Assembly: GCF_057098645.1 (NCBI RefSeq)
Contig: NZ_CM169472.1
Strand: one strand, 5' to 3'
Length of the DNA stretch: 64,000 nt
The translations under genes were made by a program, and so were the position numbers. Positions 20,264 through 53,241 of the stretch are shown one piece after another (the stretch's first letter is position 1; the number at the start of each line of letters is the position of its first letter). The notes below the pieces were generated by a model that was not told the origin of the DNA, did no database searches, and saw nothing but the letters and a program-made list of their open reading frames with translations.

Positions 20264-20548
20264 ATGCTTCAAAGTAATGAGTACTTTTCCGGCAAAGTGA
20301 AATCGATCGGCTTTTCCAGCAGCAGCACTGGTCGCGCCAGCGTGGGTGTTATGGTTGAAGGCGAATACACCTTCAGCACCGCTGAGCCGGAAGAAATGAC
20401 GGTAATCAGTGGCGCGCTGAATGTGTTACTGCCTGACGCGACCGACTGGCAAGTGTATGAAGCCGGTTCGGTGTTTAATGTTCCCGGTCACAGTGAGTTT
20501 CATCTGCAAGTTGCCGAACCCACCTCTTATCTGTGCCGCTATCTGTAA
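20264..20548 (+). CDS. ppnP: Pyrimidine/purine nucleoside phosphorylase PpnP (YaiE)
   Basis: 94 aa, [17 protein letters not shown]..., cupin-like. Confidence 0.9.
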
Positions 20549-20691
20549 TTCCTCGCCTTCCCCTTGAACGGGAGGGCATTTTTCTGAAATATCCTCTCTT
20601 TAACCCATAATAATATTTCCTTTGCTGCGATTTTTTCAATTTCCGATATATTCATAATTCATCAAGGTTGATATAAATATCATTGAAGATT

Positions 20692-22971
20692 ATGAATAGA
20701 ATTAATATATTGGTCATCTGTATGGTCGTATTTTTTATGACTGGCAATGCATGTGCCACAGAGTGGATCAGTAGCGAGGACCTTATCACCTCTGACTTTC
20801 ATCTTATGACGGCAGATGAGCGCAACGTGGTTAAAGCGGCAACCGACGATAGTATGGAAGCTGCTTATATGCTAAAAGATAATATCCGCTGGTATTATCA
20901 TAATGGTGACCTATCATTACCCGCTAACTTCAGCAATCAAAATAAACTGGTGGTGAACGGTAATTTAACGATTTCCGGCGATTATGATGATTATCTGTCA
21001 GGTAATGGTCATCTGATTGTATTAGGTAATGTTATTGTCGATAACTTTATTAATCATGATTTCGCGTATGTCAAAGGACAGATGACAGCGAAAGGTTTAG
21101 TTTATGCTGATTACAATGATCATAACTTTGAAGTGATGAAGGGAATTAGTGCGCGAGGCATTATTGTTTCCGATAAAGCAACGCAATTTGAAGTCATTAA
21201 AGCTGAATTTTATATCAATGAAGATGGAAGTGGTGAAGGATATAACTGGGATGAGAATATTCAAAAAGCCTATTCACTGGTGACTGCCGATCTTTATGAT
21301 CACACTGAAATCGAAACCGATAACATTTCCAATGCGTATCCTGACTATGATAGCGTCGCAGACAACATCGTTCAGGGTTTACCGCTTTTTCGAGATAAAG
21401 CCGCTCCTGAAATTAATGAGAAATTAAAATGGATTGAAACGGGGAAACTCGATAATTTCCCAGCGAATAAAATAAAGCATCAAGATCCACTGGTGGTACG
21501 TTTTTTGACTCATACAGAGAGTTTATCACCCGCCGTTATGCTGCAACTGTTACAGCACCCCGATGACCAGACGCGTGAATCGATGGCGCAGTCCTGGCCC
21601 GCTCAACAGATGCATTTGCTTACCGATGAATTAATTAAAGATGAGGCTGTTGCCAGAGGGCTGGTTAAAAACAGTAATATTTCCGCCGATGTGAATAAAA
21701 AATTAATGTCTGTACCCGTCGAGAGCGTACAGCTGGAGCAGGCCAGACAGGATAATCTTTCTCCAGATATTGTTGCGTCGTTAAGTCATAGCCCCTTTCT
21801 CAGTGTACGCAAGACATTACTCAGCCATTACGATTACGCCTGGCTGGTTCCGACTGCAGTGGCCGATGAGTTGATAAATAACGAAGACCCGGAGTTACGT
21901 GAAAGAATTACCGGAGCAGATTTAACCGCACAACAAGCAGTGATGTTGAGTAAAGATAAATCACTGAAAGTTCGTGAAGCATTAGCCCGGACGCTTACTG
22001 AATTAAAAATTACCCAACTGTCAGCAACCCTGCGTACAGAGGATATTGAACGTATCGCAGAACAAATGTATCTGGATAATAAAGAAAATAAAAATATCGT
22101 AAAAGCGTTATTGATAGCGTTGCCGGAGATGCGTCAACTGTCTCTGGCAAAAGAAGATGTGCACAATTTGCGCGAAGGTGCGCGTTATCTGACATCGAAG
22201 GACGTGATTAGTTATCTATTGACTCAGCATGATGTTCCCACCGTCTGGGATGAGCTGGCACGCGATAAATTATTGCCGCTGGAATATAAGAAACAGTTAT
22301 GGCAACGCACATTAAATTTAATGATGAGCAAACGGCAAGAAGATCAAGAGCAAGCCTACGAAGTACAGCTGGCGCTGATTGATAATGGTGTTGTTGACGA
22401 AGAGATGTTAAATAATGCCATTGATTTACTGGTTGATTTACCCGCTGAATACCGCTATCGAATGCGTAACCAATTATTTGATAATAAAGATTTACCTTCC
22501 GGAATTATCAACAAACTCGATCAACAGTATCGCTTCAACTCTGACTGGGCGCTGGCTGTTGTCAGTATGAAAAATAGCACCCGTAGGCAAAGTGAAAGAG
22601 GATTACACCGCTGGAACCATGAGGATAGCGATATTTTTGCGGAACTGGCGACGATAAAAGATAAATCAGATGATGAATGGTGGCGTGCATTGCTGCAAAG
22701 TCGCAATGATCATTTGCGCCAAACGGCATTACGCAACGCACATACCCCGGCGTCGTTGTTAACGACATTGACTGAGTCTCAGGATCGGTCGCTGGCTATT
22801 AATAATCCACAGCTGGCTGCCGATGTGAAAACGGTGTGGCTAAAAGAGGATCCATCATTGCTTTTATTTGTCGATCAACCCGATCTTTCGCAGTTACGGG
22901 ATTTAGTGAAAACCGGGGCAACGCGGAAAATTCGCAGTGAAGCGCGTCACCGGCTTGAGGAAAAACAATGA
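20692..22971 (+). CDS. Accessory secreted repeat protein (759 aa): Sec signal peptide, beta-rich N-domain, HEAT/LRV-like helical repeats
   Basis: ATG at 20692 gives MNRINILVICMVVFFMTGNACA|TEW (AxA cleavage site). N-terminal third has glycine-punctuated beta-strand-like repeats (LVVNGNLTISGDY, HLIVLGNVIVDNF, GLVYADY, GIIVSDK). C-terminal two-thirds has helical repeats (SPDIVASLSHSPFLSVRKTLL, EDPELRERITGADLTAQQAV). AT-rich codon usage by eye. Confidence 0.7.
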   Translation: MNRINILVICMVVFFMTGNACATEWISSEDLITSDFHLMTADERNVVKAATDDSMEAAYMLKDNIRWYYHNGDLSLPANFSNQNKLVVNGNLTISGDYDDYLSGNGHLIVLGNVIVDNFINHDFAYVKGQMTAKGLVYADYNDHNFEVMKGISARGIIVSDKATQFEVIKAEFYINEDGSGEGYNWDENIQKAYSLVTADLYDHTEIETDNISNAYPDYDSVADNIVQGLPLFRDKAAPEINEKLKWIETGKLDNFPANKIKHQDPLVVRFLTHTESLSPAVMLQLLQHPDDQTRESMAQSWPAQQMHLLTDELIKDEAVARGLVKNSNISADVNKKLMSVPVESVQLEQARQDNLSPDIVASLSHSPFLSVRKTLLSHYDYAWLVPTAVADELINNEDPELRERITGADLTAQQAVMLSKDKSLKVREALARTLTELKITQLSATLRTEDIERIAEQMYLDNKENKNIVKALLIALPEMRQLSLAKEDVHNLREGARYLTSKDVISYLLTQHDVPTVWDELARDKLLPLEYKKQLWQRTLNLMMSKRQEDQEQAYEVQLALIDNGVVDEEMLNNAIDLLVDLPAEYRYRMRNQLFDNKDLPSGIINKLDQQYRFNSDWALAVVSMKNSTRRQSERGLHRWNHEDSDIFAELATIKDKSDDEWWRALLQSRNDHLRQTALRNAHTPASLLTTLTESQDRSLAINNPQLAADVKTVWLKEDPSLLLFVDQPDLSQLRDLVKTGATRKIRSEARHRLEEKQ

Positions 22972-23423
22972 CACAACGCCCCTGGAGCAAGTTACAGCGG
23001 GAGAACTATGACTTACTGACGCCAACGATCAACCTGCACATTCACTGTACCCGTTATCCCATGCGCAGCCAAAATGGTGGAAGCACCGATTTACCGCGTT
23101 ATTGGATCACGTTGGATAAAAACGTGATCTGGGATTACCCGAAAGACTTTATTGCAGGTAACGGTGGAGTGCGTAATTTTCACGGTGAAACTTGCTGGTA
23201 TCCTTACCTGACGGATATTTGTCCAATTTCTGATTTATTGCGTGAATATATTGACACCCCAAAAGCGGAGCTGTTAACAAAACAATTTACCAGCGATAAA
23301 TGGGGGTTAGTGAATATTCTGCGTGCTGCTGACAGGCGAATAGGGATGAGACGATTCGATCAGTTACGGCGTAAAACGCATAATATTGCTGCGCTAAAAA
23401 TTATTGCCCGCCGTAGCGAATAA
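22968..23423 (+). CDS. Hypothetical protein (151 aa) translationally coupled to the upstream gene; may correspond to the K-12 ykiA locus
   Basis: ATGA start/stop overlap with the upstream ORF; basic, Trp/Tyr-rich; no family recognised. Confidence 0.55.
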   Translation: MTQRPWSKLQRENYDLLTPTINLHIHCTRYPMRSQNGGSTDLPRYWITLDKNVIWDYPKDFIAGNGGVRNFHGETCWYPYLTDICPISDLLREYIDTPKAELLTKQFTSDKWGLVNILRAADRRIGMRRFDQLRRKTHNIAALKIIARRSE

Positions 23424-23448
23424 TTATATGCCTGGTGTGGCTTCGTAC

Positions 23449-23481
23449 GCCGGATAAGACGCGGCAGGCGTCGCATCCGGC
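23449..23481. repeat. REP-like palindromic element between islet A and rdgC
   Basis: gccggataagacgcggcaggcgtcgcatccggc, typical REP core motifs. Confidence 0.6.
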
Positions 23482-23500
23482 ATTAAAGGAAAATCAGCAA

Positions 23501-24412
23501 TTAACGTTGTGCTTCACCACCTAATCCTTCAATCAGGTTTTGAATTAACGCTGCCAGTTCACCAGTCATCAGGATGAAATCGGCATCAAAACGCTGGGCG
23601 AAATCTTCACGGTCGATATCTTCGTTTTGATCGCGCAGCTCGTCGCAGAACTTCAGACGCTTGAGCGAACCATCGTCGCACATCACAAACTGAATGCGCT
23701 GCTGCCAGTCGAGCGCCAGTTTAGTCACCACTTTTCCGGCTTCAATGTGATTGGTGATCTCTTCGCTGGTCAGATCTTGTTTCTTCGCGCGGATCACTCC
23801 GCCATCTTCCAGCAACGATTTCAGCTCGGCTTCATCAAGCAGCTGGAAGCCCTGTGCCGCACTACCGGAACGTACCCATTCGGTCAGCGTCAGTTCAATC
23901 GGGTTTTCCATGCTCAATGGTACAACCGGTAACGACCCCAGGCTTTTACGCAGCAGTGCCAGCGTATCTTCCGCTTTTTTGGCACTGGCGCAGTCCACCA
24001 TAATCAAACCATTAACCGTGTCGATCCACATCATTGTCTGGCTAAAACGGCTGAAAGCACGCGGCAGCAGAGAGTGCAGCACTTCGTCTTTCAGCGAATC
24101 TTTTTCGGTTTTCTTCAGCTTACGCGCCTGTTCCGCTTCCAGTTTGGCGATTTTCGCTTCCAGCGCCTGTTTAATCACCGGAGACGGGAGGATTTTTTCT
24201 TCTTTGCGTGCGCAGATAACAATTTGACCATTGGCAACGTGCGTTAACGCATCGCTGTGCGATCCCATCGGAGGAACCCAGCCCATCTTCGCCATGTCCT
24301 GGCTGCCGCATGGGGTAAATGCCATCGAGGCTAGCTGTTTTTCCATCTCTTCTGCACGCAGCGAAATCTCGCGGCTAAGACGGTAAACCATTAAATTTTT
24401 GAACCACAGCAT
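23501..24412 (-). CDS. rdgC: Recombination-associated protein RdgC
   Basis: Start at [18 protein letters not shown]... (303 aa); ORF-track over-extended by 24 codons. Confidence 0.92.
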
Positions 24413-38807: not shown

Positions 38808-39866
38808 ATGACAATTTCAAATTCGAATTTATTAAAACCGTTTATTACTGGTTCTAAGTTGCTACCTTTTAAGGATGATGTCTTTTCTAAAACAGAAGAA
38901 CAATTTAAAAAAGCCCCCATGGCAAATCGCTTTTCATTTCCGGAAATGAAAACTTAGTAAACATTTCAGCGGAAAAAATCGATGAAATAAAAAATAGCAA
39001 AAATTTCTTTTCAAACATTGTAAATATAATAATTTTACTCATTAAGCATCCTGATAAAATTCTGCCTATTCTTCATGGTTGTCCTGCAGAGCCCATCGAA
39101 TTCATTAAGAATGCGAAACGAACGGGGCAATGGTCATATGAGATGACTGATAAGTACGGGCAGAGTATTGAAGTGTCCTATATTTTCACTGATACCATAG
39201 ATAATAAATCTGATGGAAAATTATGCTTAAAAATCTGTAACTCCTGCAACCAAAATGATTCTAGTACACATGAATATAAAATAGATCATCAACAGTTGAA
39301 AAATCACATAAAGCAACTTGAGGAGTGGGCTCTTCTTGAAAAGTTTTATGATAACAACGCTTATTATTCTAAACGTACAAAACAATTAGAGAAGAAAATT
39401 ACCGATGCGGGGTTTATAACAGGGAAGGTTAATGCCGAGAAGTTTAATGTAAAAGAGTTTAAAGACGATATAACCTCGATGCTTTGTGAACAGCCGCCCC
39501 TGCGTACACACCAGATTTCTTCATCCGGATACGTATCTGCAGATAAACTGCCCAAACTCTATGAGTTAAATTTGAAAGACGCGCAGAGAGATCTTAAAAC
39601 AACACCGGTTGACATCGATGGTGTCAGTTTAAAATTTAAAACTCGGGAAAGAATTGCAGAAGAAATTGCGAAAAAAACTGCGGGAAAAACTGCGGAAAAA
39701 AATTCGGAAATAATTGCGAAACAAAATGCGAATAGCATTGAGGAGAAGAATATTGAAAAAAAACAAGAAAGAAACAAATCCTGAAGATAATTTTGTCTTA
39801 AAATTCTCACAGGAAGAAATCAATGAGATGCTCCTGGATTACAGCGACGAAGAACAAAAAAATTAA
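38808..39866 (+). pseudogene. Accessory gene interrupted by two frameshifts at homopolymer tracts (would encode about 350 aa)
   Basis: ATG at 38808 with GGAG SD starts MTISNSNLLKPFITGSKLLPF... (frame 0). Reading continues without stop in frame 2 after the A6-G-C5 tract at 38907-38918, through the ORF-track 213-aa segment (39143-39784). It returns to frame 0 after the A8 tract at 39754-39761 and ends at 39866 (...FSQEEINEMLLDYSDEEQKN). Confidence 0.6.
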
Positions 39867-39898
39867 GACCTTTTTTCACTAGTGATCACATCTATTGT

Positions 39899-40276
39899 TT
39901 GTTCGATGCTTTTAGTCAGTGTTTGCATAATGTTGCTCGTGATGGCAGTCCACGGTATGCAGGTTTACTACAACAAATAGCATCCAAGTGTGCGATATTA
40001 CAAGATTTTGATCAACAATTGTTCTGGCGCACGTTTACAGGAGGGGGCCTCCATCGACATATCTCTGTGAAGAGCGAGCCAGAAAAGACAGATGTATGGC
40101 GATTCAGTACACAATTTGATTTTCCACATATAAATGAAAACGGAGAGTTGTCCAGAACGGTACTCATGTTCGAGGGGGTTGCTGAAAGCAACTTTAAAGA
40201 TATCGCCAATCATTCCAGCGAATGTTTTTCTTACCGTTGTTATGCCGCCCCGCTGGATGCGAATGCTAAAAAGTAA
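39899..40276 (+). CDS. Hypothetical protein (about 125 aa), start uncertain (TTG in ORF track)
   Basis: ORF with no ATG near its 5' end; AT-rich; no family recognised; may be a gene remnant. Confidence 0.3.
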   Translation: MFDAFSQCLHNVARDGSPRYAGLLQQIASKCAILQDFDQQLFWRTFTGGGLHRHISVKSEPEKTDVWRFSTQFDFPHINENGELSRTVLMFEGVAESNFKDIANHSSECFSYRCYAAPLDANAKK

Positions 40277-52571: not shown

Positions 52572-53064
52572 AGATGTCGCGAAAAGTCGCCTCAAGATGA
52601 GTAATCCGTGGCATCTGCTTGCTGTCGGATTCGGAAGTGGATTAAGCCCGATCGTTCCTGGGACGATGGGCTCGCTGGCAGCGATTCCGTTCTGGTATCT
52701 GATGACCTTTTTGCCCTGGCAGCTCTATTCGCTGGTGGTGATGCTGGGGATCTGTATCGGCGTCTATCTTTGTCATCAAACGGCGAAAGACATGGGCGTG
52801 CACGATCACGGCAGCATTGTCTGGGACGAATTTATTGGTATGTGGATCACGCTCATGGCGCTGCCGACCAATGACTGGCAGTGGGTCGCCGCCGGATTTG
52901 TGATTTTCCGTATCCTGGATATGTGGAAACCGTGGCCGATCCGCTGGTTTGATCGCAATGTACATGGTGGCATGGGGATCATGATCGATGATATTGTCGC
53001 CGGGGTGATTTCCGCAGGCATCCTGTATTTTATCGGTCATCACTGGCCGCTGGGTATTCTTTAA
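52549..53064 (+). CDS. pgpA: Phosphatidylglycerophosphatase A
   Basis: 171 aa membrane protein; 23-bp overlap with thiL. Confidence 0.92.
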
Positions 53065-53124
53065 ATGCCATTGACCGGGAGGTGTAGGCGATTCCAGACC
53101 ACCCGGTTTGATTTATAAATGAAC

Positions 53125-53146
53125 AGTGCCCCAATTTTGGGGCACT
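53125..53146. terminator. Hairpin between pgpA and the islet C gene (candidate bidirectional terminator)
   Basis: agtgcccc / ggggcact 8-bp stem, loop aatttt. Confidence 0.4.
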
Positions 53147-53241
53147 CTGTTAAAGTAAAACCCGACATCACCGAATATACTATGCGGCGATATTTCAAGG
53201 TGTATCTTTGTCACTCATAATTCAATGACACTGAAATATCG

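What the first reader, a model, noticed from the sequence alone, without database searches (positions are those of the whole stretch)
20549..23500. Islet A: coupled two-gene accessory module (secreted 759-aa repeat protein + 151-aa partner) at the ppnP-rdgC junction
Between ppnP and rdgC sits about 2.9 kb of AT-rich DNA with two tightly coupled ORFs, where K-12 (as I recall) has only the short orphan ykiA. ORF1 has a clear Sec signal peptide (AxA cleavage site), then a glycine-punctuated beta-strand repeat region suggestive of a beta-helix/solenoid, then HEAT/LRV-like alpha-helical repeats. I do not recognise that combination as any characterised E. coli protein. ORF2 overlaps ORF1 by ATGA, implying co-expression and possibly a functional pair (chaperone, immunity or cognate factor). 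No mobility gene is present and a REP element sits at the rdgC side. This is my best candidate for an undescribed periplasmic or secreted two-component system.
Basis: partly seen in the sequence, partly recalled or inferred. Interest (0 to 1): 0.7.

Follow-up and report, generated by a model that had tools for sequence, protein, structure and literature searches.

The report
Intact ykiA–ykiD locus: two unrelated genes
This islet is the undamaged version of a locus that survives in E. coli K-12 only as the fragments ykiA and ykiD; its two overlapping genes are real and catalogued but uncharacterised, and they behave as unrelated neighbours rather than a working pair.

Summary
Two ORFs overlapping by ATGA (759 aa and 151 aa) sit in AT-rich DNA between ppnP and rdgC.

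ORF1 is a Sec-exported protein. It has a short bactofilin-like beta-helix followed by about 570 aa of LRV/HEAT alpha-solenoid. RefSeq calls it "DUF2773 domain-containing protein".

ORF2 is a basic cytoplasmic "SF0329 family protein". It has a confident predicted fold with no match among solved structures.

K-12's ykiA and the validated small protein YkiD are deletion remnants of these two genes. The intact pair is present in about 8% of complete E. coli genomes.

The "coupled two-component module" reading is not supported:
- ORF1 relatives elsewhere never have an SF0329 neighbour.
- SF0329 relatives in about 80 named genomes across many phyla never have an ORF1 neighbour. They often sit in arrays of orphan immunity genes.
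- Within Escherichia each gene survives intact after the other is destroyed (E4930 versus Shigella flexneri and E. albertii).

Both genes are under purifying selection.

Best reading: a chance-fused bicistron. It probably uses the BglJ–RcsB-activated ykiA promoter and encodes a periplasmic binding scaffold plus an orphan immunity-like cassette protein. Functions remain inferred. Interest is low to moderate.

The parts
20555..20577 (+). Intrinsic-terminator-like hairpin plus T-run ending ppnP. It means the islet needs its own promoter.
   Evidence: 8-bp stem, 6 GC pairs, followed by ATTTTTCTGA; sequence.
20581..20588 (+). Candidate BglJ-RcsB box TTTTCTGA (matches wwTTCykA). It lies about 79 bp upstream of the start predicted from the CATAAT -10 at 20653-20658. 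This is inference only.
   Evidence: The intergenic region 20264-20690 is 98.4% identical to K-12-type genomes. The K-12 ykiA promoter, cloned as this intergenic region, is BglJ-RcsB activated, with its site centred 79 bp upstream of the TSS (PMC3950696). The motif position was read by eye.
20692..22971 (+). ORF1, 759 aa: exported beta-helix plus LRV/HEAT solenoid protein (RefSeq: DUF2773 domain-containing protein; Sakai ECs_0442).
20692..20757 (+). Sec-type signal peptide, aa 1-22 (MNRINILVICMVVFFMTGNACA|TEW).
   Evidence: hydrophobic core, A-x-A motif, conserved in 30 of 43 homologues. SignalP was not run.
20881..21231 (+). Short beta-helix domain, aa ~64-180. It has a conserved GDL...G.L.I.G.YDDY...VLG...YND..FEV pattern and no Pfam model.
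21247..22965 (+). Alpha-solenoid of LRV/HEAT-like helix pairs, aa 186-758. Its last 81 aa are what Pfam calls DUF2773 (nt 22726-22968).
20691..22629 (+). Segment lost in deletion 1, replaced by CTCCA. This junction is shared by the K-12, NN5, Shigella flexneri and MOD1-EC7003 alleles. What remains of ORF1 is ykiA.
22957..22961 (+). Shine-Dalgarno-like GAGGA, 6 nt before the ORF2 ATG, inside the end of ORF1.
   Evidence: Sequence.
22968..23423 (+). ORF2, 151 aa: basic (pI 9.6) cytoplasmic SF0329 family protein (Sakai ECs_0443).
22990..22999 (+). Left copy (AGTTACAGCG) of the 9/10 microhomology at which K-12 lost 372 bp in frame, producing ykiD.
   Evidence: YkiD sequence in PMC6001520.
23362..23371 (+). 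Right copy (AGTTACGGCG) of that microhomology. It is also the right end of the independent ORF2 deletion in Escherichia sp. E4930.
23442..23483 (.). REP element between the convergent ends of ORF2 and rdgC.
   Evidence: searches (inverted copies elsewhere; naRNA4 27.8 bits, below gathering threshold), sequence.

Best explanation
This is the intact ancestral form of the K-12 ykiA-ykiD pseudogene locus. It is a bicistron of two evolutionarily unrelated accessory genes that became juxtaposed with an ATGA overlap in an ancestor of Escherichia. Each gene works on its own.

ORF1
- It is made with a Sec signal peptide and exported. The mature protein is about 84 kDa, acidic and cysteine-free.
- It consists of a short bactofilin-like beta-helix followed by a roughly 570-aa LRV/HEAT alpha-solenoid, and no catalytic domain was detected.
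- It most likely acts as a periplasmic or envelope binding scaffold for a protein or glycan ligand. This is inferred from the fold only.

ORF2
- It is a small, basic cytoplasmic protein of the SF0329 family.
- The family is very conserved and horizontally spread. In other bacteria it usually sits as one cassette in arrays of orphan immunity genes.
- It most likely neutralises or counteracts an incoming toxin, independently of ORF1. This is inferred from gene neighbourhood only.

Transcription and history
- Transcription probably starts at the BglJ-RcsB-activated ykiA promoter in the conserved ppnP-ORF1 spacer. This is shown in K-12 and inferred here.
- The locus is being lost. Most E. coli carry deletion remnants.
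For: Shown: identity of the remnants.
- K-12-type genomes align to the window at 20264-20690, 22630-22999 and 23362 onward.
- YkiD (MTQRPWSKLQR|KTHNIAALKIIARRSE) equals the first 11 plus the last 16 residues of ORF2.

Shown: allele counts in 5,426 complete E. coli genomes.
- The full locus is present in 443.
- The ORF1 body is present in 446.
- The ORF2 body is present in 920.
- An ORF1-less allele with a +1 frameshift in ORF2 is present in 420.

Shown: independence of the two genes.
- Escherichia sp. E4930 keeps ORF1 (74% aa identity, dN/dS 0.12) while ORF2 is cut to 21 codons.
- Shigella flexneri, MOD1-EC7003 and E. albertii keep an intact ORF2 without ORF1. ORF2 dN/dS against E. albertii is 0.076.
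- Five distant ORF1 homologues at four non-syntenic loci lack SF0329.
- The 80 SF0329 loci from named genomes lack ORF1 relatives outside Escherichia.

Shown: ORF1 structure.
- The AF2 model has pLDDT 91.6.
- Family members hit LRV/HEAT Pfam models.
- The signal peptide is conserved in the family.

Shown: ORF2.
- It scores 87.5 bits against an NF049912 cutoff of 60.
- 25 columns are invariant across phyla.
- It has pI 9.6 and no hydrophobic segment.

Shown: SF0329 neighbours elsewhere.
- They include Imm10, Imm51, SUKH-1, SUKH-3, SUKH_6, DUF4240 and Macro.
- There are 13-19-gene co-directional arrays behind a tyrosine recombinase, at 34% GC. These match the rAID-1 description in bioRxiv 10.1101/471110.

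Shown: promoter. The ykiA promoter is BglJ-RcsB activated in K-12 (PMC3950696).
Against: - No experiment bears on either protein's function.
- No cognate toxin was found next to any SF0329 gene.
- The high conservation of SF0329 is unusual for immunity proteins.
- Many SF0329 loci are singletons rather than arrays: 18 of 83 have a run length of 1.
- ORF1 localisation (periplasm, surface or medium) is unknown, and SignalP was not run.
- The ATGA overlap and the internal Shine-Dalgarno sequence do imply co-expression in this lineage, so a lineage-specific functional link cannot be excluded.
- Most genomes with an intact ORF1 in E. coli also carry ORF2.
- The ORF2 copies in EHEC look slightly degraded. 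O157 has a 7-bp 3' deletion, and this window has H24 where at least 90% of the family has Q.
Confidence: 0.6

Rival explanations
1. Toxin/effector-immunity pair. ORF1 is an exported toxin or effector, and ORF2 is its cognate cytoplasmic immunity protein.
For: - A small gene lies directly downstream and overlaps.
- The SF0329 family lives in polyimmunity-like arrays.
- ORF1 was lost first with ORF2 retained in Shigella and E. albertii, which resembles orphan immunity.
- BglJ-RcsB is also predicted to target rhs loci (PMC3950696).
Against: - ORF1 has no toxin domain. Its C-terminus is solenoid and is conserved family-wide rather than polymorphic.
- E4930 keeps ORF1 under purifying selection with ORF2 destroyed.
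- ORF1 homologues have no downstream immunity-like gene.
- There are no PADLOC hits.
- A Sec-only protein has no evident route into a neighbour's cytoplasm.
Confidence: 0.06
2. Chaperone or cognate-factor pair. ORF2 binds nascent ORF1 in the cytoplasm and aids its export or folding.
For: Translational coupling by ATGA with an internal Shine-Dalgarno sequence. ORF2 is small and cytoplasmic.
Against: - Each gene survives without the other in both directions.
- SF0329 is about 60% identical in Bacillota, Bacteroidota, Spirochaetes and Campylobacter genomes that lack any ORF1 relative.
- ORF2 remains under purifying selection in E. albertii without ORF1.
Confidence: 0.04
3. ORF2 is not an immunity protein. 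It is instead a nucleic-acid-binding or enzymatic accessory factor, for example stress- or defence-related, that merely travels in cassette arrays.
For: - It is basic (pI 9.6) with an Arg-rich conserved C-terminal helix region, ILRAADRRIG.RRL..L.RKTHN.
- Its 25 invariant residues across phyla resemble an active or binding site more than a fast-evolving immunity interface.
- Some copies lie next to defence genes (TerB/BrxC/helicase), a prophage recombination module or a serine recombinase.
Against: - There are no PADLOC hits and no significant PHROG hits.
- It is absent from 50,697 phage records.
- Recurrent neighbours are immunity-type families.
Confidence: 0.2
4. ORF1 is a surface or secreted adhesin or matrix protein rather than a periplasmic scaffold.
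Against: - There is no beta-barrel translocator, TpsB partner, sortase or lipobox signal, and no secretion-system genes nearby.
- The beta-helix is only about 110 aa.
- Most of the protein is alpha-solenoid.
Confidence: 0.15
5. Both genes are functionless relics in this strain.
For: - The locus is deleted or frameshifted in about 92% of E. coli.
- There are IS1 insertions and frameshifts in some 'full' alleles.
- ORF2 shows deviations in O145 and O157.
Against: - Both ORFs are intact here.
- dN/dS is 0.12-0.19 between diverged alleles.
- ORF1 has been maintained since before the E. coli / E4930 split.
Confidence: 0.1

Closest known systems
E. coli K-12 ykiA (b0392) pseudogene and the small protein YkiD
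   Same: Same locus, same promoter region and same reading frames. ykiA is the last ~114 codons of ORF1. YkiD is the first 11 plus the last 16 codons of ORF2.
   Different: The window carries the undeleted genes, 759 and 151 aa. The K-12 products lack the signal peptide, the beta-helix, most of the solenoid and the whole conserved core of SF0329.
LRV / HEAT-like alpha-solenoid repeat proteins (Pfam LRV PF01816, LRV_2 PF25591, HEAT_2 PF13646; alphaRep, importins, MMS19 as structural matches)
   Different: ORF1 is exported by a Sec signal and carries an N-terminal beta-helix. The query itself hits HEAT only at E=8.5. No ligand is known.
Bactofilins (BacA, PDB 2n3d) and other short beta-helix domains (tapirins, autotransporter passenger domains)
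   Different: There is no Bactofilin Pfam hit. The protein is exported rather than cytoplasmic. It has no autotransporter barrel and no evidence of polymerisation.
Orphan immunity genes in polyimmunity / rAID-1 arrays of Bacteroidales (Ross et al., bioRxiv 10.1101/471110)
   Same: SF0329 relatives sit in co-directional, low-GC arrays of small genes behind a tyrosine recombinase. Their neighbours include Imm10, Imm51, SUKH and DUF4240 genes.
   Different: The E. coli copy is a single gene with no recombinase or array. No toxin is known for the family. Protection has never been tested. Conservation across phyla (50-66% identity) is much higher than is typical for immunity genes.

Membership tests
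DUF2773 (Pfam PF10971) | Match to the 81-residue profile | tested here: met
   E 2.1e-40 at aa 679-759, covering model positions 1-81 of 81. The 'domain' is simply the last LRV-like repeats of the solenoid.
LRV/HEAT repeat proteins | Sequence match to the repeat profiles | tested here: inconclusive
   The query hits only HEAT, at E 8.5. Among the 43 homologues, 7 hit LRV_2, 4 hit LRV and 2 hit HEAT_2 at E<=0.001.
LRV/HEAT repeat proteins | Alpha-solenoid of stacked helix pairs | tested here: met
Bactofilin (PF04519) | Profile match | tested here: not met
Bactofilin (PF04519) | Cytoplasmic location and polymer formation | tested here: not met
   The location criterion fails: ORF1 carries a signal peptide. 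Polymerisation cannot be tested with these tools.
Autotransporter / two-partner-secretion adhesins | C-terminal beta-barrel translocator, or an adjacent TpsB transporter | tested here: not met
   The C-terminus is alpha-solenoid. The neighbours are ppnP, ORF2 and rdgC.
Sec-exported proteins | An N-terminal n-h-c signal peptide with a small-x-small cleavage motif | tested here: met
   MNR / INILVICMVVFFMTG / NACA|TEW. KD19 is 2.09 at aa 4-22. The feature is conserved in 30 of 43 homologues. SignalP and experimental tests were not done.
SF0329 family (Pfam PF25753; NCBIfam NF049912) | Score above the curated cutoff | tested here: met
   87.5 bits against a cutoff of 60 over aa 6-148. Pfam E is 1.4e-19. 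All 45 aligned homologues hit PF25753.
Polymorphic toxin-immunity pair | The upstream protein ends in a variable toxin domain | tested here: not met
   No toxin domain was found. The C-terminus is conserved across the family and is helical repeat.
Polymorphic toxin-immunity pair | Toxin and immunity genes co-occur across genomes | tested here: not met
   There is no co-occurrence outside Escherichia. Within the genus, each gene has been lost independently of the other.
Polymorphic toxin-immunity pair | The immunity protein neutralises the toxin | not testable with these tools
   This needs co-expression or competition assays.
rAID-1 / polyimmunity array (applies to SF0329 relatives) | [quoted passage not shown] | tested here: met
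   L006 and L007 have a 379-aa Phage_integrase followed by 13-19 co-directional small genes, including Imm10 and SF0329, at 34% GC. Identity above 44% to the B. fragilis recombinase was not tested.
rAID-1 / polyimmunity array (applies to the window locus) | The same features at the E. coli locus | tested here: not met
   There is no recombinase and no array. A single SF0329 gene lies between ORF1 and rdgC.
Known anti-phage defence systems (PADLOC) | A match to any PADLOC model | tested here: not met
   Zero families for either protein at E<=1.

The most novel reading that the evidence does not exclude
SF0329 proteins are a structurally unprecedented, unusually conserved class of orphan immunity (toxin-neutralising) proteins. 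On this reading the Escherichia islet is a miniature acquired interbacterial-defence locus. ORF1 would be a periplasmic toxin-binding solenoid and ORF2 a cytoplasmic one, switched on together with the rhs loci by BglJ-RcsB.
Probability: 0.15. Interest if true: 0.6.

Novelty: new member of a known kind. Interest (0 to 1): 0.3.

Why it matters
1. Two K-12 annotations are clarified. ykiA and the experimentally detected 'new small protein' YkiD are deletion scars of a 759-aa exported protein and a 151-aa SF0329 protein. They are not genes in their own right.

2. The work documents a stepwise decay series at one locus, with shared and independent deletions. This series is useful as a phylogenetic marker in Escherichia and Shigella.

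3. SF0329 is flagged as a very conserved, widely transferred protein. Its fold is confidently predicted but has no match among solved structures. It rides in immunity-gene arrays, which makes it a reasonable target for toxin-immunity screens or structure determination.

4. The result removes a false lead: the overlap of the two genes does not mark a conserved two-component system.

Tried and rejected
- PDB sequence searches for both proteins gave nothing below E 0.5.
- PADLOC gave nothing.
- PHROGs gave only weak partial hits, E 0.0036 and 0.067.
- NCBIfam gave nothing meaningful for ORF1.
ORF1 contexts therefore came from single look-ups.
- SF0329 in mobile elements: 0 of 50,697 phage records and 2 of 72,556 plasmid records, one of which is a 1.2-Mb 'plasmid'.
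- A cognate toxin was sought among large genes flanking SF0329 in other genomes. Those genes turned out to be PurL, a serine recombinase, a membrane protein, a dockerin-type beta-helix protein and a TPR giant. None is a toxin.
- The AFDB neighbours labelled DUF4304 were not confirmed by sequence: 0 of 45 family members hit DUF4304.
- The ORF1 N-domain profile search found only unannotated ~200-aa proteins with no Pfam domains. Other architectures fuse the domain to TPR or PARCEL repeats. Neither result is informative on function.
- No direct or inverted repeats bound the islet.
- Rfam gave only a sub-threshold REP-derived hit.
- I first noted the ykiA promoter as H-NS repressed. On re-reading, H-NS was not tested for ykiA, so that claim is withdrawn.
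Full report
**What is there**

The window holds two same-strand ORFs between ppnP (20264-20548) and the convergent rdgC (23501-24412). ORF1 is 20692-22971 (759 aa from ATG). ORF2 is 22968-23423 (151 aa). The stop of ORF1 and the start of ORF2 overlap as ATGA, and a GAGGA lies 6 nt upstream of the ORF2 start.

The stretch is AT-rich: ORF1 is 42.5% GC and ORF2 45.2%, against about 51% for the flanking genes. ppnP ends in a terminator-like hairpin at 20555-20577. A REP element lies at 23442-23483. No mobility gene and no bounding repeats are present.

**What the databases already call it**

A 99.9% identical O145 genome annotates the pair as 'DUF2773 domain-containing protein' (WP_122986368.1) and 'SF0329 family protein' (WP_000194201.1). 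In O157:H7 Sakai they are ECs_0442 and ECs_0443.
- Pfam finds DUF2773 only on the last 81 residues of ORF1.
- Pfam finds SF0329 (PF25753) on ORF2.
- NCBIfam NF049912 scores ORF2 at 87.5 bits against a cutoff of 60.
- Nothing was found in PDB sequences, PADLOC or PHROGs.
- No paper mentions these loci.

**ORF1**

An exhaustive HMMER search of 1.8 billion representative proteins found 171 relatives. About 35 are full-length proteins of 750-800 aa at 25-35% identity. A 43-sequence alignment gave an AlphaFold2 model with pLDDT 91.6 and pTM 0.83. The model shows three parts:
- an N-terminal helix, which is the signal peptide;
- a compact beta-helix (strands at aa 68-176);
- an uninterrupted alpha-solenoid (aa 186-758).

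The only hydrophobic segment is aa 4-22, followed by ACA|TEW. The mature protein is acidic (pI 5.0) and has no cysteine. A signal-peptide-like N-terminus is present in 30 of 43 homologues.

The beta-helix domain has no Pfam model. It also occurs alone, as ~200-aa proteins in Streptomyces and Myxococcota, and fused to TPR or PARCEL repeats. No catalytic or toxin domain is detectable.

**ORF2**

The word-indexed search found 522 relatives in Proteobacteria, Bacillota, Bacteroidota, Spirochaetes, Campylobacterota and others, at 50-66% identity. 25 columns are invariant in a 45-sequence alignment. Conserved motifs include WSKLQ, QIHC, LPRYWITL, DYP, YPY, IREYIDTP and WGL.NILRAADRRIG.

The protein is basic (pI 9.6) and has no hydrophobic segment. 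It is absent from 50,697 phage records and essentially absent from plasmids.

**Are the two genes a module? No.**

(a) Outside Escherichia the families never meet.
- A profile HMM of the ORF1 family found no relative in any of the 80 SF0329 loci from named genomes, apart from the Escherichia ones.
- Distant ORF1 homologues sit at unrelated loci with no SF0329 gene. These loci are: between sprT and an MFS transporter gene; next to a Sel1 protein; next to cytochrome c; and as tandem paralogues in a Pseudomonas MAG.

(b) Inside Escherichia each gene survives without the other.
- Escherichia sp. E4930 has ppnP-ORF1-rdgC. Its ORF1 is intact (74% aa identity, dN/dS 0.12). Its ORF2 is reduced to ATG plus 20 codons.
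- Shigella flexneri (the source of the name SF0329) and Escherichia sp. MOD1-EC7003 have lost the body of ORF1 but keep an intact 151-aa ORF2.
- E. albertii lost ORF1 by an independent deletion. It keeps ATGAATAG and the last ~130 bp. Its ORF2 is intact, with dN/dS 0.076 relative to the window.

(c) ORF1 is exported and ORF2 is not.

The converse case argues against a toxin-immunity or addiction pair.

**Decay series in E. coli**

The counts below are out of 5,426 complete genomes.
- 443 carry the full locus, mostly O157:H7, O145:H28 and scattered others.
- Deletion 1 removes 20691-22629 and leaves CTCCA. This junction is shared by all the derived E. coli and Shigella alleles, so it was a single event.
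- On that background most genomes (about 4,500) also carry deletion 2. This is a 372-bp in-frame loss between AGTTACAGCG (22990) and AGTTACGGCG (23362). It gives ykiA plus the 27-aa YkiD, whose published sequence is exactly the fused ends of ORF2.
- 420 genomes instead lost the ykiA remnant and carry a +1 C frameshift at codon 5 of ORF2. 398 of them are identical across the 60-bp junction.
- By subtraction, about 54 have deletion 1 with an undeleted ORF2.
- Among 'full' alleles, a few have IS1 insertions or frameshifts.
- O157 ORF2 has a 7-bp 3' deletion that replaces the last residues.
- Between diverged intact alleles, dN/dS is 0.15-0.16 for ORF1 and 0.18-0.19 for ORF2. Both genes have therefore been functional where they were kept.

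**What the SF0329 neighbourhood suggests**

- In Bacteroidales and some metagenome contigs, SF0329 is one cassette in long co-directional arrays of small genes.
- L006 and L007 have 13-19 such genes at 34% GC behind a 379-aa tyrosine recombinase, and the arrays include Imm10 and Macro.
- In Parabacteroides distasonis (L021), SF0329 lies between DUF4240 and SUKH-1 genes, with Imm51 and DUF4274 nearby.
- Paenibacillus and Leminorella loci include SUKH-3, DUF2314 and WGR/DUF4240.
- Other neighbours are SUKH_6, DUF5071, DUF6985 and DUF7716.

This matches the published description of recombinase-associated polyimmunity (rAID-1) clusters (bioRxiv 10.1101/471110). It is guilt by association only. No adjacent toxin was found, many loci are singletons, and the family is far more conserved than typical immunity genes. 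A nucleic-acid-binding or enzymatic role remains a serious rival.

**Regulation**

The 427 bp from ppnP to the base before the ORF1 ATG are 98.4% identical to K-12-type genomes. [quoted passage not shown] H-NS repression was not tested for ykiA in that paper.

In the window, a TTTTCTGA (20581-20588) matches the wwTTCykA core about 79 bp upstream of the start expected from a CATAAT at 20653-20658. This mapping is my inference. Co-transcription of ORF1 and ORF2 is inferred from the overlap and from the lack of any terminator between them.

**Most likely mechanism (inferred steps marked)**

1. Under BglJ-RcsB-activating conditions (shown for K-12, inferred here), one mRNA is made.
2. ORF1 is exported by Sec (inferred from sequence). 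It acts as a non-enzymatic binding scaffold in the envelope (inferred from fold).
3. ORF2 stays in the cytoplasm and acts on its own. Most plausibly it is an orphan immunity-like factor (inferred from neighbourhoods elsewhere).
4. The ATGA coupling is a lineage-specific accident of juxtaposition. It is not a conserved functional link (shown by distribution).

**Verdict**

This is a real, intact accessory locus, and the structural reading was accurate. However, the two genes belong to catalogued uncharacterised families and are not a conserved pair.

Interest is low to moderate. The useful outcomes are the reinterpretation of ykiA and YkiD as deletion scars, the documented decay series, and the flagging of SF0329 as a conserved family with a fold not seen in solved structures, sitting in immunity-type arrays.

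Noticed in passing
window 22968-23423 versus K-12-type L002 3486-3569: YkiD was reported as a validated new small protein of K-12 (PMC6001520). It is an in-frame fusion of the first 11 and last 16 codons of the 151-aa SF0329 gene. RefSeq still annotates it as 'protein YkiD' rather than as a pseudogene.
   Followed up: yes
window 23362-23371; L103 5278-5300: The independent ORF2 deletion in Escherichia sp. E4930 ends at the same GTTACGGCG as the K-12 deletion 2. This suggests a recurrent breakpoint, or a recombination hotspot, at this 10-mer.
   Followed up: partly
L098 (O157:H7 Sakai) 5662-6111: O157:H7 ORF2 (ECs_0443) has a 7-bp deletion near its 3' end. This gives 149 aa ending ...ALKNYCPP and removes the family-invariant R149. 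RefSeq does not flag it as a pseudogene.
   Followed up: partly
window 23037-23039 (ORF2 codon 24): The window's ORF2 allele has His at position 24, where at least 90% of the family, and other Escherichia alleles, have Gln. It also has I13N and L130F relative to other Escherichia copies. This may reflect relaxed constraint in the O145 lineage.
   Followed up: no
L103 versus window, both sides of the islet: Against Escherichia sp. E4930, rdgC has dS 0.18. On the other side, ppnP and aroM have dS 0.63-0.75, and ORF1 has dS 1.3. The islet therefore sits at a recombination boundary.
   Followed up: partly
L006 8486-8938: A 150-aa ORF inside the rAID-like array weakly matches the ORF1-family HMM (E 2e-7), presumably through LRV repeats. 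Small LRV-repeat proteins therefore also occur as cassettes in polyimmunity-type arrays.
   Followed up: no
window 20881-21231 (ORF1 aa ~64-180): The beta-helix domain has no Pfam model. It occurs as stand-alone ~200-aa proteins in Streptomyces, Nocardia and Myxococcota, and fused to TPR or PARCEL repeats. It is an uncatalogued domain family.
   Followed up: partly
L036-L089 (about 30 uncultured Campylobacter MAGs): SF0329 occupies a conserved slot after 227-aa and 177-aa ORFs. This slot is downstream of an RseP-like protease gene (371 aa) and a YggS-like gene (212 aa), with variable genes after it.
   Followed up: no
H34 (NZ_CP135595.1) and H70 (NZ_CP182139.1): IS1 insertions interrupt ORF1 in a few otherwise 'full' E. 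coli alleles.
   Followed up: no
window 3001-4000, 39001-40000, 53001-55000: Three other AT-rich patches exist. One has GC 0.39, with a 962-aa ORF at 3617-6505. One has GC 0.36, with a 213-aa ORF at 39143-39784. One has GC 0.34-0.35, with a 520-aa ORF at 53242-54804 on the minus strand. They may be further accessory islets.
   Followed up: no
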